NCBI GenBank assembly: GCA_009914755.4
Contig: CP068257.2
Coordinates: 29,440,001-29,504,000, forward strand
From: the human T2T-CHM13v2.0 reference genome, Homo sapiens
Length of the DNA stretch: 64,000 nucleotides
Direction of reading: 5' to 3'
Shown: positions 10,787-16,503 of the stretch, one piece after another
Numbering within the stretch: position 1 is the stretch's first letter
Layout: the number at the start of each line of letters is the position of its first letter
Program-made: the position numbers and the translations under genes
Notes under the pieces: generated by a model
The model's input: only the letters and a program-made list of their open reading frames with translations
Told to the model about the DNA's origin: nothing
Database searches by the model: none

Positions 10787-11415
10787 TGTGTCCCAAATTG
10801 GTTCCTTCCAGTGGGTTGTCTCGCTGACTTCAAGAATGAAGCTGCAGACCCTCGCGGTGAGTGTTACAGTTCTTAAAGATGGTGCATCCGGAGTTTGTTC
10901 CTTCAGATGTTCAGATGTGTCCCGAGTTTCTTCCTCCCAGTGGGTTCATCGTCTCGCTGACTTCAGGAGTGAAGCTGCAGACCCTCACGGTGAGTGTTAC
11001 AGCTCTTAAAAGTAGTGCTGACCCAAAGACCCAAAGAGTGAGCAGCAGCAAGACTTACTGACAAGAGCGAAAATGCAAAGCTTCCACAAGGTGGAAGGGA
11101 ACCCGAGTGGGTTGCAGCCGCTGGCTAGGATAGCCAGCTTTTATTCCCTTATTTGGCCCCACCCACATCCTGCTGATTGGTCCATTTTACAGAGCGCTGA
11201 TCGGTCTGTTTTTACAGAGTGCTGATTGGTGCATTTACAAACCTTTAGCTAGACATAAAGCACTTATTGGTGCGTTTTTACAGAGTGCTGATTGGTGCGT
11301 TTACAAACCTTTAGCTAGACACAGAGTGCCCACTGGTGTTTACAATCCTTTAGCTAGACAGAAAAGTTCTCCAAGTCCCCACCCGACCCAGAGGCCCAGC
11401 CAGCTTCACCTCTCA
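10787..11415 (+). mobile_element. Solo LTR12 (ERV9-family LTR), short form lacking the GC-rich 3' segment; flanked by a 4-bp TSD ATTT
   Basis: Two tandem gctgacttca.gaatgaagctgcagaccctc.cggtgagtgttacagctcttaaa blocks, then gagcagcagcaagacttactg; repeated tgctgattggtgcatttacaa.cctttagctagaca units; ends ...ccagccagcttcacctctca. ATTT occurs directly before (10783-10786) and after (11416-11419). Compared with the second copy, the stretch between two cacctctc(a) motifs is absent. Confidence 0.7.
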
Positions 11416-11576
11416 ATTTTACTTATGGCAGGCTTATCTTTCCAACTCGTTTGTAAATATATACTACAAAGGCAGGAAAATGGGCCCACGATAGTGTTTT
11501 TCACAAAAAGTAGTTTCTGACATTGGTTAATGAGTCACAGTGAAAAATGGAAGATGCTAATCTTCCAAAAAGCATA

Positions 11577-11836
11577 GGCCAGGCACGGGGTGGGGGTCAT
11601 GCCTGTAATCCCAGCACTTTGGGAGGCCAACGTGGGAGGATCACTTGGGCCCAAAAGTTTGAGACCAGCCTGGGCAACACAGCAAGATTCAATCTCTACT
11701 AAAATAAAAAAAAAATAGGCATATGCCTGTAGTCCCAGCTACTCAGGAGGTGAAGGCAGGAGGATCACTTGAGCCTGGGAGTTCAAAGTTGCAGTGAACT
11801 ATGACCCTATCTCCAAAAATAAATAAATAAATAAAA
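11577..11836 (+). mobile_element. Alu, + orientation
   Basis: ggccaggcacggggtgggggtcatgcctgtaatcccagcactttgggaggccaacgtgggaggatcacttgggcccaaaagtttgagaccagcctgggcaacacagcaag...; A-rich tail aaaataaaaaaaaaat...aaataaataaataaataaaag; approximate TSD AAAAGCATA / AAAAGGCATAA. Confidence 0.88.
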
Positions 11837-11876
11837 GGCATAATTATAAGTTGGCAGAAATAATTATATAATAAAT

Positions 11877-12168
11877 TTTTTTTTTTTGGAGACAGTCTCT
11901 CGCTCTGTTGCCCATGCTGGAGTGCAGTGGCACGATCTCAGCTCACTGCAACCTCTGCCTCCATGGTTCAAGAGATTCTCCTGCCTCACCCTCCAAGTAG
12001 CTAGGACTACAGGCACATGCCACCACGCCCAGCTAATTTATTGTATTTTTAGTAGAGACGGGGTTTCACCATGTTAGCCAGGATGGTCTCGATCTCCTGA
12101 CCTTGTGATCCGCCCGCCTCAGCCTCCCAAAGTGCTGGGATTACAGGTGTGAGCCACTGCGCCCAGCC
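11877..12168 (-). mobile_element. Alu, minus orientation
   Basis: tttttttttttttggagacagtctctcgctctgttgcccatgctggagtgcagtggcacgatctcagctcactgcaacctctgcctcc...cctcccaaagtgctgggattacaggtgtgagccactgcgcccagcc. Confidence 0.92.
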
Positions 12169-13282
12169 TGTAATAATTAATATGGTGATATCTGTCTTTA
12201 CAACAATCCCACCCATGAGGTTGGTGATATTTGTATCCTATTTTTCGAGATGAGAAAATGGAAGGACAAAGAATTTTAAAAGCTTGCCCACTTACTGGTA
12301 GAGGTAGCAAAGCCAGGACTTGAACCCAGGAAGTCAGGCCCTCCAAAGTCTTCTATCATTTTATTTACTTGCCTTTTTTCCCCATTCCTGTTCAACTAAT
12401 GGCTATGATTTGTGTCAAAGGTCTTTTCAGAACCAAAAGAAAAGAAAAGACAATATTGTATTAACTGATATTCTGTCTACTTTTACTGTCAGGTGAGACA
12501 GTTGCTTGGAATAGTGAATCAGAATCTGAACGTGGTGCTTCTAAGACAATAAAGACAGGGAGAATCCTAAGCTGGCATTCAAAAAAACGTCGCAGATCAC
12601 ATCATTCCACATCTCATTGTGTAATCTGGACAGCTGAACCCTCAACAGATTCAGGGACTAGTTCAAGGTCACACACGCAGCGAAAAATGTAGTTGAAACC
12701 AATTTAGTAGGAGGGCCCCTACCAACCTCCTCTTGTTAGTCTGAATAGCCTGCATGAGAAGGAAAAGCAGCAGTAATATCAATTAGAAACAGGAAAGCTC
12801 ATCTGCCTCCTAACTCCCTAAAGATCTTTCGGGCCCTTTAAAAAAAGGTAGTGTCCAAGACACAAATACCAAGTCCACTGAAGGTCTCACTAACCAAATT
12901 GTGTGATGAGGCATTTCTGCAGATGAATATTTTTTTGGAGCTCTAAATCATCTCATCCTTAAATTAAATAATTCTTCCCCCCCCACCCCCCCGCCTCCAC
13001 AAGGTAATTTAGAATAAAGAAGATAGTGTTTGTAACACACCTTTCTTGCCCCCAACACACATGCACCTTGATCCCCTCATCTGTCGGGCTACAAAGTTCC
13101 TTTTAAAAAATATTTTTTCTAATTGATAAAATTTGCTTTTGCTCATTAACTTTCCCAGTTAAAAGCCCTGGCTAGATGCTTTTTAAAGTAACACAGATGG
13201 AGATACGGGAAAGCAAAGATCAGAAACATTGGTGAAAGCACTGAAATGTTTCTTTTCTAAAAAGATTCATTAGTGATCAGAC

Positions 13283-14236: not shown

Positions 14237-14293
14237 AGAGAGAGAGAGAGAGAGAGAGAGAGAGAGAGAGAGAGAGAGAGAGAGAGAGAGAGA
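14237..14293. repeat. (GA)n microsatellite (~27 units), embedded in a longer GA-rich tract from 14165 to 14300
   Basis: Direct read of a perfect agagagag... run. Confidence 0.95.
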
Positions 14294-14724
14294 ATGAAAA
14301 TAAGAACGATAATTTTGGGACCCAGCAATATGCTTGAGTTTGCGTTTGACTCTAAAAACATTCATAGTGAAACAGCGGCCTCCTCTGGTCACAGGCAGGA
14401 AATTCAAGAACTTCTGTTTCTTACCAAAGTCAATTTTAAACTATGAAAATGGATGGATTATTACATTGGAAAAGAACTGTATTCAACATTTACCAAATCT
14501 GCCGTTGTGCACTAAAACCGTATAAACTAGAAAACTCAACCCAAAATCAGTGTTCTGAGGGTGATGAGTTCCAGCAAAAATCCTATGAGAAATTAGAGTT
14601 GGATAGGATCTTGCTCACATTTAATCTATTCTCCCTCACAGTGATCTTCCCTAGTTAAATTAAGTAAAAGTTGAAAATTATCCTCCAGGGTGAAACAATT
14701 TTCCCAAAATGGTCACTACTGGTC

Positions 14725-14915
14725 TGCTTGTACTCCATTCGGAGCCAGATAGACCTAGATTTGAATGCTGGATTCATAGAGCTGCATAACTTTGGACCAG
14801 GACTTGCCCTGTTTTTCCATCTGTAAAATAGGCCCCATAGCACCTCTCAGGGCTTCTCTGCAGATGCAGTGAAAGCACACACAAAGCACTAAGCATGTAG
14901 GAAAAATTTTGACAA
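14725..14915 (+). mobile_element. MIR (tRNA-derived SINE) fragment
   Basis: agatagacctagatttgaatgctggattcatagagctgcataactttggaccaggacttgccctgtttttccatctgtaaaataggccccatagcacctctcagggc... parallels the MIR core (..gttcgaatcccggctctgccacttactagctgtgtgaccttgggcaagttacttaacctctct..cctcatctgtaaaatgggg). Confidence 0.55.
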
Positions 14916-15024
14916 CGTCAGGGCCCCTTCCTGTTGCTACCACTGAGTCCAATATAGCTCGTAGCTCACTGAATTGTATGTCTAATGTTTGTGTATTTTT
15001 TTTTGTTTTACTCATTTATAAAAG

Positions 15025-15391
15025 CAAAGATCGTCTTTATAACTTTTATTGCGGTAAAACGTGATATTTGGTAAGATATAATTTGCCATTCTAACCATTT
15101 GTAAGTGTACATTTCAGTGGCATCAATTATATTCACAATATCGTCCAACCATCACCACTATCCATTTCCAAAACTTTTTCATCACTCCAAATAGAAACTT
15201 TGTATCCGTTAAGAAATAATTCCTCCTCCCCTCCTCCTCCTCTCATTGCTGGTAACTTCTAATCTACTTTCTATCTCTATGAATTTGCCTGTTTTATATA
15301 TTTCATGTAACTAGGATTATGCAATATTTGTCCTTTTGTGTCTGGTTTATATCACTTACCATAATATTTTTGAGATTCATTCATGTTGTAG
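15025..15391 (-). mobile_element. L1 fragment (antisense of the ORF2 3' region), 5' piece of an element split by the LTR12 and Alu insertions
   Basis: ...tatccgttaagaaataattcctcctcccctcc...ctggtaacttctaatctactttctatctctatgaatttgcctgtt...gtccttttgtgtctggtttatatcacttaccataatatttttgagattcattcatgttgtag is the antisense L1 3' region; the same element continues at 16504-16530 and 16808-16995. Confidence 0.7.
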
Positions 15392-16503
15392 TGCGTCCGG
15401 AATTGGTGGCTTCTTCGTCTCACTGACTTCAAGAATGAAGCAGCAGACCCCCGCGGTGAGTGTTACAGTTCTTAAAGATGGTGTGTCTGGAGTTTGTTCC
15501 TTCTGGTGGTTTCGTGGTCTCGCTGACTTCAGGAGCGAAGCTGCAGACCTTCACGGTGAGTGTTACAGCTCTTAAAGGCTGCACGTCTGGAGTTTCGTTC
15601 CTTCCGGTGGGTTCATGGTCTTGCTGGCCTCAGGAGTGAAGCTGCAGACCTTCGCGGTGAGTATTACAGCTCATAAAAGCGGCGCAGACCCAAAAAGTTA
15701 GCTGCAGCAAGATTTATTACAAACAGCAAAAGAACAAATCCTCCACAGCATGGAAAGGAACCTCAGCGGTTCGGGTGGCCTGCTTTTATTCCCTCATTTG
15801 GTCCCACCCACATCCTGCTGATTGGCCCATTTTACAGAGAGCTGATTGGTCCGTTCTACAGAGAGCTGTTCGGTCTGTTTTGACCGAGTGCTGATTGGTG
15901 CGCTTACAAATCTTTAACTAGACACAGAGTGCTGATTGGTGCGTTTACAATCCTTTAGCTAGACACAAAAGTTCCCCAAGTCCCCACCCGATTAGCCAGA
16001 CACAGAGCAATGATTGGTGCGTTTACAAACCTTTAGCTAGACACAAGTGCTGATTGGTGCATTTACAATCCTTCAGCTAGACGGAAAAGTTCTCCAAGTC
16101 CCCACCCCGCCTACAAGCCCAGCCGGCTTCACCTCTCTCTGGCACTCCCATGGGTCTTTGCGGCACCTAGCCTGGGCACTCCCGCAGCCCGGACGGAGCT
16201 CGTTCCGGATCAAGCCCAGCGGACACCTGCCGGCCGCGCCAAGCGCAGAGCCCGCCGAGCCCGCGCCCACCTGGAACCGTGCCGGCCTGCGAGCGCCGTG
16301 CGCAGCCCCGGCTCCCGCCCGCGCCTCTTCCTCCACACCTCCCCGCCAGCAGAGGGAGCCGGCTCTGGCCTCGGCCAGCCCCAGAGAGGGGCCCCCACAG
16401 CGAAGCAGCGGGGTGAAGGGCTCTTGGAGCAGGGACAGAGCGGAGGCCAAGGCCGAGGAGGCGCCAAGAGCGAGCGAGGGCTGCTAGCAGTTGCCACCTC
16501 TCA
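15392..16503 (+). mobile_element. Solo LTR12 (ERV9-family LTR), full-length form with a GC/CpG-rich 3' segment; flanked by a 4-bp TSD GTAG
   Basis: Begins TGcgtccggaattggtggc; three gctgacttca.ga..gaagc.gcagacc..c.cggtgagtgttacagctc blocks; the tgctgattggtgcgtttacaa.cctttagctagaca repeats; a GC-rich region at 16120-16490 (CpG-dense, e.g. ccggccgcgccaagcgcagagcccgccgagcccgcgcccacc); ends ccacctctCA. GTAG occurs at 15388-15391 and 16504-16507. Inserted into an L1. Confidence 0.75.

What the first reader, a model, noticed from the sequence alone, without database searches (positions are those of the whole stretch)
10787..16503. Two independent solo LTR12 (ERV9) insertions 4.6 kb apart, antisense to the gene
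Both LTR12 copies are in the same orientation, but each carries its own 4-bp TSD (ATTT and GTAG). There is no ERV9 internal sequence between them, so this is not a provirus. Copy 2 is 1.1 kb and includes a CpG-dense segment at 16120-16490. Copy 1 is 0.63 kb and lacks exactly the stretch lying between two cacctctc(a) motifs, which is consistent either with a shorter LTR12 subfamily or with a deletion mediated by the short direct repeat. By established knowledge, LTR12-family LTRs are recurrently co-opted as tissue-specific or drug-derepressed cryptic promoters. Here they point opposite to the minus-strand gene and could drive antisense or lncRNA transcription. That last step is inference.
Basis: partly seen in the sequence, partly recalled or inferred. 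Interest (0 to 1): 0.5.

Follow-up and report, generated by a model that had tools for sequence, protein, structure and literature searches.

The report
Two ordinary solo ERV9 (LTR12) LTRs
These are two separate, old leftover retroviral end-pieces (solo LTR12 elements) lying about 32–37 kb beyond the end of a TIAM1-like gene and pointing the same way as it, not against it; this is a routine feature of primate DNA.

Summary
The structural observation holds exactly. Copy 1 is 10787-11415 (629 bp, ATTT duplicated on both sides). Copy 2 is 15392-16503 (1112 bp, GTAG on both sides). Both have TG…CA ends, and nothing retroviral lies between them.

The published Dfam LTR12C consensus matches the window only at these two places, and only on the minus strand. 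All oriented landmarks (CCAAT repeats, GTGGGGA, AATAAAAG, AATAAA) are also minus-strand only.

The only gene found is TIAM1-like, also on the minus strand, with its stop codon at 48113-48115. So the LTRs are co-oriented with the gene and lie 31.6-37.3 kb downstream of its coding end. They are not antisense to it.

Copy 1's missing GC-rich block is a subfamily trait, not a local deletion. Among 62 independent LTR12-bearing contigs, about 20 start at the same TGAGAGGTGAAGC with unrelated flanks, and 10 start there directly after a proviral polypurine tract. Copy 2 belongs to a class with a ~365-nt extension.

Neither copy keeps the start-site element GCCANNNNTGGC, and copy 2 has a private 14-nt deletion of it. 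Promoter activity could not be tested.

Verdict: ordinary, already-known repeats; low interest.

The parts
10787..11415 (-). Copy 1: solo LTR12-family LTR, short form with no 5' extension, 629 bp. On the minus strand it runs U3, R, U5.
   Evidence: It aligns to the Dfam LTR12C consensus from position 631 to 1565, minus strand only, E=2e-111. It is ~8.9% diverged from a consensus of short-form copies.
10783..10786 (.). ATTT target-site duplication, copy 1 (partner at 11416-11419)
11416..11419 (.). ATTT target-site duplication, copy 1 (partner at 10783-10786)
11172..11338 (-). Copy 1 U3 tandem repeats carrying CCAAT boxes (CCAAT starting at 11295, 11270, 11229, 11180, read on the minus strand)
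   Evidence: spacings 41/25/41/49 nt
11138..11145 (-). Copy 1 AATAAAAG TATA-like box
11114..11125 (-). Copy 1 degenerate start-site element GCCAGCGGCTGC (consensus GCCAGCAGTGGC; the 3' half-site is lost)
11054..11059 (-). Copy 1 mutated poly(A) signal (AGTAAG instead of AATAAA)
10787..11010 (-). Copy 1 U5 with two repeat units (anchors at 11007 and 10874)
15392..16503 (-). Copy 2: solo LTR12-family LTR with a ~366-nt GC-rich 5' extension, 1112 bp
   Evidence: It aligns to the LTR12C consensus on the minus strand only, E=7e-180. It is ~7.5% diverged from a consensus of copies with the same extension.
15388..15391 (.). GTAG target-site duplication, copy 2 (partner at 16504-16507)
   Evidence: the paralog empty-site control is
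16504..16507 (.). GTAG target-site duplication, copy 2 (partner at 15388-15391)
16138..16503 (-). Copy 2 5' extension, CpG-island-like (73% G+C, 35 CpG, o/e 0.72). It starts with TGAGAGGTG and is followed by a second (A)GAGAGGTG at the core start.
   Evidence: It aligns to LTR12C consensus positions 33-290.
15817..16107 (-). Copy 2 U3 tandem repeats (41-nt period, 4.9 copies, plus 24-nt units) with six CCAAT boxes and two GTGGGGA motifs
15783..15790 (-). Copy 2 AATAAAAG TATA-like box
15763..15780 (-). Copy 2 site of the private 14-nt deletion that removes the GCCANNNNTGGC start-site block
   Evidence: All 30 informative sampled copies keep this block.
15713..15718 (-). Copy 2 intact AATAAA poly(A) signal
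15404..15677 (-). Copy 2 U5 tandem repeats (period 100 nt, 2.7 copies)
15173..15391 (+). Old LINE-like 3' end that received copy 2. It continues at 16508 onward, and a paralog lies at 17386-17830.
48113..48582 (-). Context: terminal coding exon of a TIAM1-like gene (…SRKLNTEI, stop TGA at 48113-48115). The acceptor …TGTGTGCAG| at ~48583 is inferred.
52217..52471 (-). Context: open frame containing an upstream exon that matches the end of the Pfam 'Tiam1 second PH domain-like' family
   Evidence: PF23014, E=2.4e-5, 24.7 bits, just below the curated cut-off of 27

Best explanation
These are two unrelated germline integrations of ERV9-type gammaretrovirus-like proviruses from two structurally different LTR12 subfamilies. 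Copy 1 is the short form with no 5' extension. Copy 2 is a form with a ~365-nt GC-rich 5' extension. Each integration made its own 4-bp target-site duplication. Each provirus was later reduced to a solo LTR by recombination between its two LTRs. Both now sit in sense orientation on the minus strand, in what appears to be intergenic DNA 31.6-37.3 kb downstream of the stop codon of a minus-strand TIAM1-like gene, among Alus and an old LINE fragment.

Shown here: identity, boundaries, TSDs, polarity, subfamily-level architecture, and position relative to the coding end of the gene.

Inferred: solo-LTR formation by LTR-LTR recombination, which is the standard mechanism. Also inferred: both are most likely silent repeats. 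If de-repressed, canonical initiation (~30 nt downstream of AATAAAAG, i.e. near 11115 and 15760) would give minus-strand transcripts running toward lower coordinates. Those run away from the gene and in its own direction, not antisense to it.
For: - Homology and polarity. The Dfam LTR12C consensus (PMC11317136, Suppl. Fig. S1) hits the window only at the two elements and only on the minus strand, E=7e-180 and 2e-111.
- Oriented motifs. CCAAT (5 and 7 sites), GTGGGGA, a GATA-like site, AATAAAAG and AATAAA are found only on the minus strand. These landmarks come from PMC11853044. The U3 period of 41 nt matches the published E elements.
- Independence. Each copy has TG…CA ends and its own 4-bp TSD. 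An empty-site paralog exists for copy 2. The copies are only ~68% identical overall and differ in architecture.
- Not a provirus. There are no retroviral domains between the copies and no PBS or PPT.
- Family-level architecture. Among 62 independent LTR12 contigs, ~20 have the short 5' end TGAGAGGTGAAGC next to unrelated AT-rich flanks. Ten have the same end directly after a conserved AGAGGGGGGAT purine tract, downstream of gag-pro-pol-env ORFs (Gag_p30, RVP, RVT_1, RNase_H, rve, TLV_coat) on the same strand. Thirteen have a ~365-nt extension like copy 2, and six have a ~615-nt extension like LTR12C.
- Termini. The 5' and 3' ends of both window copies coincide with those of independent copies.
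- Gene. A minus-strand frame ends …SRKLNTEI* at 48113-48115, and its named homologs are TIAM1-like/RhoGEF. There is a PH_Tiam1 match at 52217-52471, minus strand.
Against: - No RepeatMasker/Dfam subfamily call could be made, and only the LTR12C consensus was available.
- The 3' end of the gene's transcript was not determined. AATAAA signals lie 1.9 and 2.7 kb past the stop, but no cDNA evidence was available.
- Non-coding genes overlapping the LTRs cannot be excluded. An lncRNA called TIAM1-AS1 exists in the literature, but no coordinates were found.
- 'Silent' is an assumption. No expression, CAGE or methylation data were accessible. Copy 2's extension has the highest CpG o/e of the 12 sampled copies with that extension, which could hint at germline hypomethylation.
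- Some LTR12 elements are reported to be bidirectional (PMC11853044).
Confidence: 0.88

Rival explanations
1. One reading: the two LTR12 elements are antisense to the minus-strand gene and act as cryptic promoters driving antisense or lncRNA transcription against it.
For: LTR12 elements are well-documented cryptic promoters that can be de-repressed by HDAC and DNMT inhibitors (PMC11853044; PMC5085097). Some are reported to be bidirectional. Both copies keep their CCAAT boxes and the AATAAAAG box.
Against: The LTR sense strand is the minus strand, the same as the gene. The LTRs lie 31.6-37.3 kb downstream of the stop codon. Canonical transcription would therefore leave the gene, not oppose it. 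Neither copy has an intact GCCANNNNTGGC start-site element, and copy 2 has a private deletion of it. No paper was found that links these LTRs to TIAM1.
Confidence: 0.05
2. Copy 1 was originally a long LTR like copy 2 and lost its 366-nt GC-rich block at this locus, by recombination or replication slippage between the two TGAGAGGTG direct repeats.
For: In extension-bearing LTRs the block really is bracketed by the 9-mer: TGAGAGGTGACAAC… at the start and …TGAGAGGTGAAGCC at the core. Such a deletion would therefore leave exactly copy 1's structure.
Against: The same short 5' end occurs at ~20 loci with unrelated flanks, and directly after the polypurine tract of proviruses in 10 contigs. The short form is therefore what the virus itself carried. 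Copy 1 is somewhat closer to short-form copies than to extension-bearing ones in the promoter/R segment, 81-84% against 78%. Its length of 629 nt lies within the short-form range of 600-818 nt. The review states that the 5' extension is a feature of only some subfamilies.
Confidence: 0.06
3. The two LTRs are the 5' and 3' LTRs of one degraded provirus whose interior was replaced or deleted.
For: They have the same orientation and lie 4 kb apart.
Against: Each LTR has its own matching TSD, and the outer flanks do not match each other (GTAG vs ATTT). The architectures differ: extension or none, different repeat numbers, ~68% identity. There is no PBS or PPT and no retroviral domain. The interval is filled with Alus, simple repeats and a LINE fragment.
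Confidence: 0.01
4. One or both LTRs have been co-opted as a distal regulatory element, either as a 3' enhancer of the TIAM1-like gene or as the promoter of a same-strand downstream non-coding transcript. NF-Y would bind the CCAAT repeats, and copy 2's extension would behave as a CpG island.
For: Multiple CCAAT boxes are retained. Copy 2's extension meets CpG-island criteria and has the highest CpG o/e (0.72) of 12 sampled relatives. LTR12-derived enhancers are documented. TIAM1 mRNA rises after DNMT plus HDAC inhibition in glioblastoma lines, though no cause was assigned (PMC12154421).
Against: There is no functional data of any kind for this locus. Ranking first of 12 is weak statistics. The start-site element is damaged or deleted. 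Most of the 4,000-6,000 LTR12 copies have no known function (PMC11853044).
Confidence: 0.12

Closest known systems
LTR12C (Dfam/Repbase consensus, ERV9 LTR)
   Same: Both copies are collinear with the consensus from the core start (position 631) through the CCAAT repeats, the AATAAAAG box, R and the U5 repeats to the …CCAATTCCGGACACA terminus. Copy 2 also matches consensus positions 33-290 of the 5' extension.
   Different: Identity is only 73-88% per segment. Copy 1 has no extension at all. Copy 2 lacks about 340 nt of the ~630-nt LTR12C extension. Neither copy has the GCCAGCAGTGGC start-site motif. They therefore belong to other LTR12 subfamilies, which I could not name.
Short-form LTR12 copies and proviral 3' LTRs (class A in my sample of metagenome-derived host contigs, e.g. 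L055, L038, L029)
   Same: Same 5' terminus as copy 1 (TGAGAGGTGAAGC…), same 3' terminus, similar length (600-818 nt), and copy 1 is ~9% from their consensus.
   Different: Copy 1 has its own point mutations, including a destroyed poly(A) signal (AGTAAG) and a damaged start-site half-site.
LTR12 copies with a ~365-nt extension (class B in my sample, e.g. L060, L023, L066, L072)
   Same: Same start as copy 2 (TGAGAGGTGACAAC…GCTAGCAGCCCTCGCT), an extension of about the same length, a second TGAGAGGTG at the core boundary, and copy 2 is ~7.5% from their consensus.
   Different: Copy 2 has a private 14-nt deletion of the start-site block and the highest CpG retention in the extension.
Documented co-opted LTR12 promoters (TP63, TNFRSF10B, DHRS2, SEMA4D and others; PMC11853044 Table 1)
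   Same: Same repeat family and the same NF-Y/CCAAT-rich U3 region.
   Different: Those elements lie upstream of, or inside, their target genes in sense orientation, and transcription from them has been mapped. The elements here lie downstream of the only gene found, have damaged start-site elements, and have no expression evidence.

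Membership tests
ERV9 / LTR12 family LTR | Sequence homology to a curated LTR12 consensus | tested here: met
   The Dfam LTR12C consensus (PMC11317136, Fig. S1) aligns to both copies, E=7e-180 and 2e-111, and nowhere else in the window.
ERV9 / LTR12 family LTR | U3 tandem repeats of ~41 nt carrying CCAAT (NF-Y), GATA-like and GTGGGGA motifs | tested here: met
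   41-nt period, 4.9 copies in copy 2. There are 5 and 7 CCAAT boxes, and GTGGGGA is present in both copies. The exact GATA-type motif occurs once in copy 1, and only the looser GTNTCTAGCT form occurs in copy 2. All are on one strand. Copy 1 has fewer units than the published range of 5-17.
ERV9 / LTR12 family LTR | AATAAAA(G) box upstream of the R region | tested here: met
   At 11145-11138 and 15790-15783.
ERV9 / LTR12 family LTR | GCCANNNNTGGC start-site inverted repeat (described for transcriptionally active LTR12C loci) | tested here: not met
   Copy 1 reads GCCAGCGGCTGC and copy 2 has the block deleted. Only 4 of 31 sampled non-window copies have an exact match, so this marks active LTR12C loci rather than the whole family.
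ERV9 / LTR12 family LTR | Variable number of U5 tandem repeats | tested here: met
   Two units in copy 1 and about three (period 100 nt) in copy 2. The review quotes 72-bp B elements. The unit length measured here differs, probably because the unit is defined differently.
ERV9 / LTR12 family LTR | TG…CA termini and a 4-bp target-site duplication (class I ERV integration) | tested here: met
   empty-site paralog. That class I ERVs make 4-bp TSDs is from established knowledge.
ERV9 / LTR12 family LTR | The LTR belongs to a gammaretrovirus-like provirus, and its polarity is defined by gag-pro-pol-env | tested here: met
   Contigs L029, L047 and L077 carry Gag_p30, zf-CCHC, RVP, RVT_1, RNase_H, rve and TLV_coat, then a purine tract, then an LTR with the same 5' start as copy 1, all on one strand.
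LTR12C subfamily specifically | ~600-nt GC-rich 5' extension and high identity to the LTR12C consensus | tested here: not met
   Copy 1 has no extension and copy 2 has ~366 nt. Segment identities are 73-88%.
Named Repbase/Dfam subfamily (LTR12, LTR12_, LTR12B, LTR12D, LTR12E, LTR12F) | Best match among the subfamily consensuses | not testable with these tools
   Only the LTR12C consensus could be obtained, and no RepeatMasker or Dfam library is available.
Intact or degraded ERV9 provirus | Internal gag/pol/env remnants, PBS after the 5' LTR, PPT before the 3' LTR, one TSD shared by the outer flanks | tested here: not met
   No Pfam domain in six frames of 11416-15391. No PBS or PPT. The outer flanks are GTAG and ATTT.
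CpG island (Gardiner-Garden and Frommer criteria) | At least 200 bp, G+C at least 50%, CpG o/e at least 0.6 | tested here: met
   16138-16503: 366 bp, 73% G+C, o/e 0.72. This is a sequence criterion only, and methylation state is unknown.
Functional LTR-derived promoter | Mapped transcription start within the LTR (CAGE, RACE or RNA-seq) | not testable with these tools
   No expression data were accessible, and no paper reports transcription from these loci.

The most novel reading that the evidence does not exclude
Copy 2's CpG-island-like extension has stayed unmethylated in the germline. On this reading the LTR pair is a regulated element downstream of TIAM1, acting either as an NF-Y-bound 3' enhancer or as the promoter of a same-strand downstream non-coding RNA. 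It could contribute to the reported rise of TIAM1 after DNMT/HDAC inhibition.
Probability: 0.08. Interest if true: 0.3.

Novelty: already known. Interest (0 to 1): 0.1.

Why it matters
It matters little. Solo LTR12 elements number in the thousands per genome and are routinely annotated.

The useful outcome is corrective. The elements are co-oriented with the TIAM1-like gene and lie downstream of it, so the proposed antisense-promoter scenario does not follow from the sequence. The short copy is an ordinary short-subfamily LTR and not a deletion product.

If either LTR turned out to be active, it would be one more example of LTR12 co-option, not a new principle.

Tried and rejected
- An Rfam scan of the whole window found nothing.
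- A 17-nt junction pattern in viral contigs gave 16 hits, none with LTR12 homology, so they are chance matches.
- My first attempt to scan six-frame translations by reference failed because of stop codons. I redid it with stops masked as X.
- Pfam on ten long ORFs elsewhere in the window (1-36 kb) found no domains, so there is no evidence of another coding gene near the LTRs.
- Pfam on nine other minus-strand ORFs between 48 and 64 kb found nothing beyond the PH_Tiam1 exon.
- I tried to read a 5' LTR/PBS junction in provirus contig L029, but the contig lacks the 5' LTR.
- Literature searches for a TIAM1-LTR12 link and for TIAM1-AS1 gave no coordinates or functional link.
- Comparing per-segment identity to assign copy 1 to the short or extended class gave only a modest preference for the short class. 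The terminus evidence is what decides the question.
- Dating: divergence from small mixed-class consensuses (~9% and ~7.5%) is too crude to convert into an age. I only conclude that both are old copies, compatible with the ~30-6 Mya ERV9 activity window quoted in PMC11853044.
- The species of the window was not established. The best protein matches to the terminal exon are 93% identical, and the database apparently lacks the exact sequence.

Full report
**1. What is in the sequence**

The region holds two homologous elements in the same orientation.

| Element | Coordinates | Length | Ends | Flanking duplication |
|---|---|---|---|---|
| Copy 1 | 10787-11415 | 629 bp | TG…CA | ATTT at 10783-10786 and 11416-11419 |
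| Copy 2 | 15392-16503 | 1112 bp | TG…CA | GTAG at 15388-15391 and 16504-16507 |

A pairwise alignment shows how the copies differ:
- Copy 1 lacks a 366-nt block present at one end of copy 2 (window 16138-16503).
- The copies differ in the number of ~40-nt repeats.
- They differ in the number of ~100-nt repeats (two versus three).

The block is 73% G+C with CpG o/e 0.72, against 0.27 for the whole window.

**2. GTAG is a real target-site duplication**

The flanks of copy 2 belong to one old LINE-like 3' end. A paralogous copy at 17386-17830 matches both the left flank and the sequence beyond an adjacent Alu. It runs uninterrupted through the insertion point (69% identity over 413 aligned positions). 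Copy 2 therefore inserted into a pre-existing repeat and duplicated GTAG.

**3. Family and polarity**

Four independent lines agree.

(a) A review of LTR12 (PMC11853044) gives the sense-strand order: U3 with ~41-nt tandem repeats carrying CCAAT, a GATA site (TCTGTATCTAGCT) and GTGGGGA; an AATAAAA box ~30 nt upstream of the start site; a GCCANNNNTGGC start-site element; then U5 repeats. A strand-resolved scan finds CCAAT (5 and 7 sites), GTGGGGA, the GATA-like site, AATAAAAG and AATAAA only on the window's minus strand, with none on the plus strand.

(b) Tandem Repeats Finder gives a 41-nt period in copy 2's U3 and a 100-nt period in its U5.

(c) The Dfam LTR12C consensus, printed 5'→3' in Supplementary Fig. 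S1 of PMC11317136, aligns to the window only at the two elements and only on the minus strand, with E=7e-180 for copy 2 and 2e-111 for copy 1.

(d) A 22-nt motif shared by both copies retrieved 62 LTR12-bearing contigs from metagenome assemblies, presumably host DNA. In the longest of them, gag-pro-pol-env ORFs lie on the strand I call sense. They are followed by a purine tract and then the LTR. Pfam confirmed them in L029 as Gag_p30, zf-CCHC, RVP, RVT_1, RNase_H, rve and TLV_coat.

The elements are therefore LTR12-family (ERV9) LTRs whose sense strand is the window's minus strand.

**4. Not a provirus**

- Six-frame Pfam scans of the 3976 bp between the copies find no domain.
- The bases that would be PBS and PPT are CTACAACATG… and …CATAAGTAAAAT.
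- The outer flanks do not share a duplication, while each LTR has its own.
- The two LTRs are only ~68% identical overall and differ in architecture.
- The interval consists of Alus, simple repeats and the LINE fragment.

**5. Subfamily or local deletion for copy 1**

Upstream of the shared core, the 62 contigs fall into classes:

| Class | 5' configuration | Contigs |
|---|---|---|
| A, flank | TGAGAGGTGAAGC… directly preceded by unrelated, mostly AT-rich flanks | ~20 |
| A, PPT | the same start directly after a conserved …TTTAGAGGGGGGAT tract at the end of proviral internal sequence | 10 |
| B | a ~365-nt extension like copy 2 | 13 |
| C | a ~615-nt extension like LTR12C | 6 |
| internal | the 22-nt motif hit an internal U3 repeat, so the 5' end was not classified this way | 12 |

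Seventeen extension-bearing contigs whose alignment reaches the 5' end start TGAG…GTGACA…GCT… next to flanks unrelated to the window's, as copy 2 does; three pairs of them have identical flanks, so about 14 distinct loci are represented. The review independently states that a ~600-nt 5' extension is present in many LTR12C, D and E copies, and that LTR12 lengths range from ~500 to more than 1300 bp.

The short form is therefore what some ERV9 viruses carried. Copy 1 is an ordinary full-length member of it. Supporting measurements:
- Short-form lengths in the sample are 600-818 nt.
- The 3' termini …CCAATTCCGGACACA coincide.
- Copy 1 is ~8.9% from a short-form consensus.
- Copy 1 is slightly closer to short-form than to extended copies in the promoter/R segment, 81-84% against 78%.
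- Copy 2 is ~7.5% from a consensus of class B copies.

It describes a family-level indel boundary, not an event at this locus. A local deletion cannot be strictly excluded, but nothing requires it.

**6. The gene and relative orientation**

A minus-strand open frame at 48116-48715 ends …EDFAPSRKLNTEI followed by TGA at 48113-48115. Its homologs include proteins named 'rho guanine nucleotide exchange factor TIAM1-like' and one with a RhoGEF domain. A likely splice acceptor (…TGTGTGCAG|) lies at ~48583 (inferred).

A second minus-strand frame at 52217-52471 matches the last 33 positions of Pfam PF23014, 'Tiam1 second PH domain-like' (E=2.4e-5). The gene therefore runs from high to low coordinates, and its coding region ends at 48.1 kb. 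AATAAA signals lie 1931 and 2669 nt past the stop. The actual poly(A) site was not determined.

The LTRs lie 31,610 to 37,326 nt downstream of the stop codon, on the same strand as the gene. No other coding domain was found in long ORFs between 2.5 and 36 kb. The statements 'antisense to the gene' and 'point opposite to the minus-strand gene' are therefore wrong.

One possible source of the error: the plus strand of the U5 repeats reads …CGCGGTGAGTGTTACAG…, which looks like a 5' splice site (GGTGAGT, two and three times) and may suggest plus-strand polarity.

**7. Promoter potential**

A three-way alignment with the LTR12C consensus shows that both copies keep the proximal CCAAT boxes, the G-rich box and AATAAAAG. 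The differences are:

| Feature | Copy 1 | Copy 2 |
|---|---|---|
| Start-site element (consensus GCCAGCAGTGGC) | GCCAGCGGCTGC, 3' half-site lost | removed by a 14-nt deletion |
| Poly(A) signal | AGTAAG, destroyed | AATAAA, intact |

Among 31 sampled relatives (30 informative), only 4 have an exact GCCANNNNTGGC and most read GCCAGCAGCGGC. Copy 1's state is therefore unremarkable. All 30 informative copies keep the block, so copy 2's deletion is private to this locus.

The review calls this inverted repeat essential for proper start-site use. If transcription did start canonically, near 11115 and 15760, it would run on the minus strand toward lower coordinates and away from the gene. Antisense initiation has been reported for some LTR12 elements and cannot be excluded.

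No expression data were available. Two papers mention both TIAM1 and LTR12, but neither links them. One reports that TIAM1 mRNA increases after DNMT plus HDAC inhibition, without a mechanism.

**8. A weak lead**

Copy 2's extension meets the sequence criteria for a CpG island. It has the highest CpG o/e (0.72) of 12 sampled copies with that extension (others 0.29-0.69, median 0.53). It retains 12 of 18 consensus CpGs, against a median of 42%. This could reflect germline hypomethylation or a younger age. With a rank of 1 in 12 it is only a hint.

**9. Chance and novelty**

With the 4,000-6,000 LTR12 elements per genome quoted, 29-66 pairs within 5.7 kb are expected by chance alone, and half of those would be co-oriented. 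The proximity is not remarkable.

Both elements are ordinary, already-known repeat types. Only the named subfamily remains unassigned, for lack of RepeatMasker or Dfam libraries.

**10. Verdict**

- The structural observation is confirmed in every detail.
- The family assignment and the independence of the two insertions are confirmed.
- The orientation and location relative to the gene are wrong.
- The deletion alternative is disfavoured.
- The promoter inference is untested and somewhat weakened.
- Interest is low.

Noticed in passing
window 48113-48582 and 52217-52471 (minus strand): These are the last coding exon (…SRKLNTEI*) and an upstream PH-domain exon of a TIAM1-like Rho-GEF gene. The best database matches to the terminal exon are only 93% identical, so the exact protein seems to be absent from the searched collection, and the species of the window was not established.
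   Followed up: partly
window ~16527-16803, with AAAACTTTATT at 16516-16526 and 16804-16814: An Alu inserted into the same old LINE-like 3' end as copy 2, about 20 bp from it. It has an 11-bp target-site duplication and a 16-nt A-run (the first 12 A's are the tail; the last 4 begin the target-site duplication).
   Followed up: partly
window 17386-17830 (+), and L1-like ORF fragments at 17.5-22.7 kb: A paralogous old LINE 3' end (69% identical to the one hosting copy 2) and further degraded LINE ORF fragments. None gave Pfam hits.
   Followed up: partly
window 10861-10867, 10990-10996, 15457-15463, 15557-15563, 15658-15664 (+ strand; approximate): The antisense strand of each U5 repeat unit carries a consensus 5' splice-site-like GGTGAGT (two in copy 1, three in copy 2). 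None occurs on the LTR sense strand. This may have misled a reading of the polarity, and it could offer donors to plus-strand read-through transcripts.
   Followed up: no
window 16138-16503: Copy 2's GC-rich extension has the highest CpG o/e (0.72) of 12 sampled LTR12 copies with the same extension (others 0.29-0.69). This is a possible sign of germline hypomethylation or of younger age.
   Followed up: partly
loci L017-L078 (metagenome contigs): LTR12 5' ends come in three architectures: no extension, ~365 nt, and ~615 nt. In the ~365-nt class, the 9-mer TGAGAGGTG occurs both at the LTR start and at the extension/core boundary. This suggests the extension was gained or lost in the virus lineage at a short direct repeat.
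   Followed up: partly
L029, L047, L077: Metagenome assemblies contain ERV9-like proviruses with long, nearly open gag-pro-pol-env frames (up to 659 aa uninterrupted). This is evidently primate host DNA in the samples.
   Followed up: partly
window 13307-13419 and 14222-14293: A purine-rich low-complexity tract of (GGAA/AAAG)n type and a (GA)36 microsatellite lie between the two LTRs.
   Followed up: no
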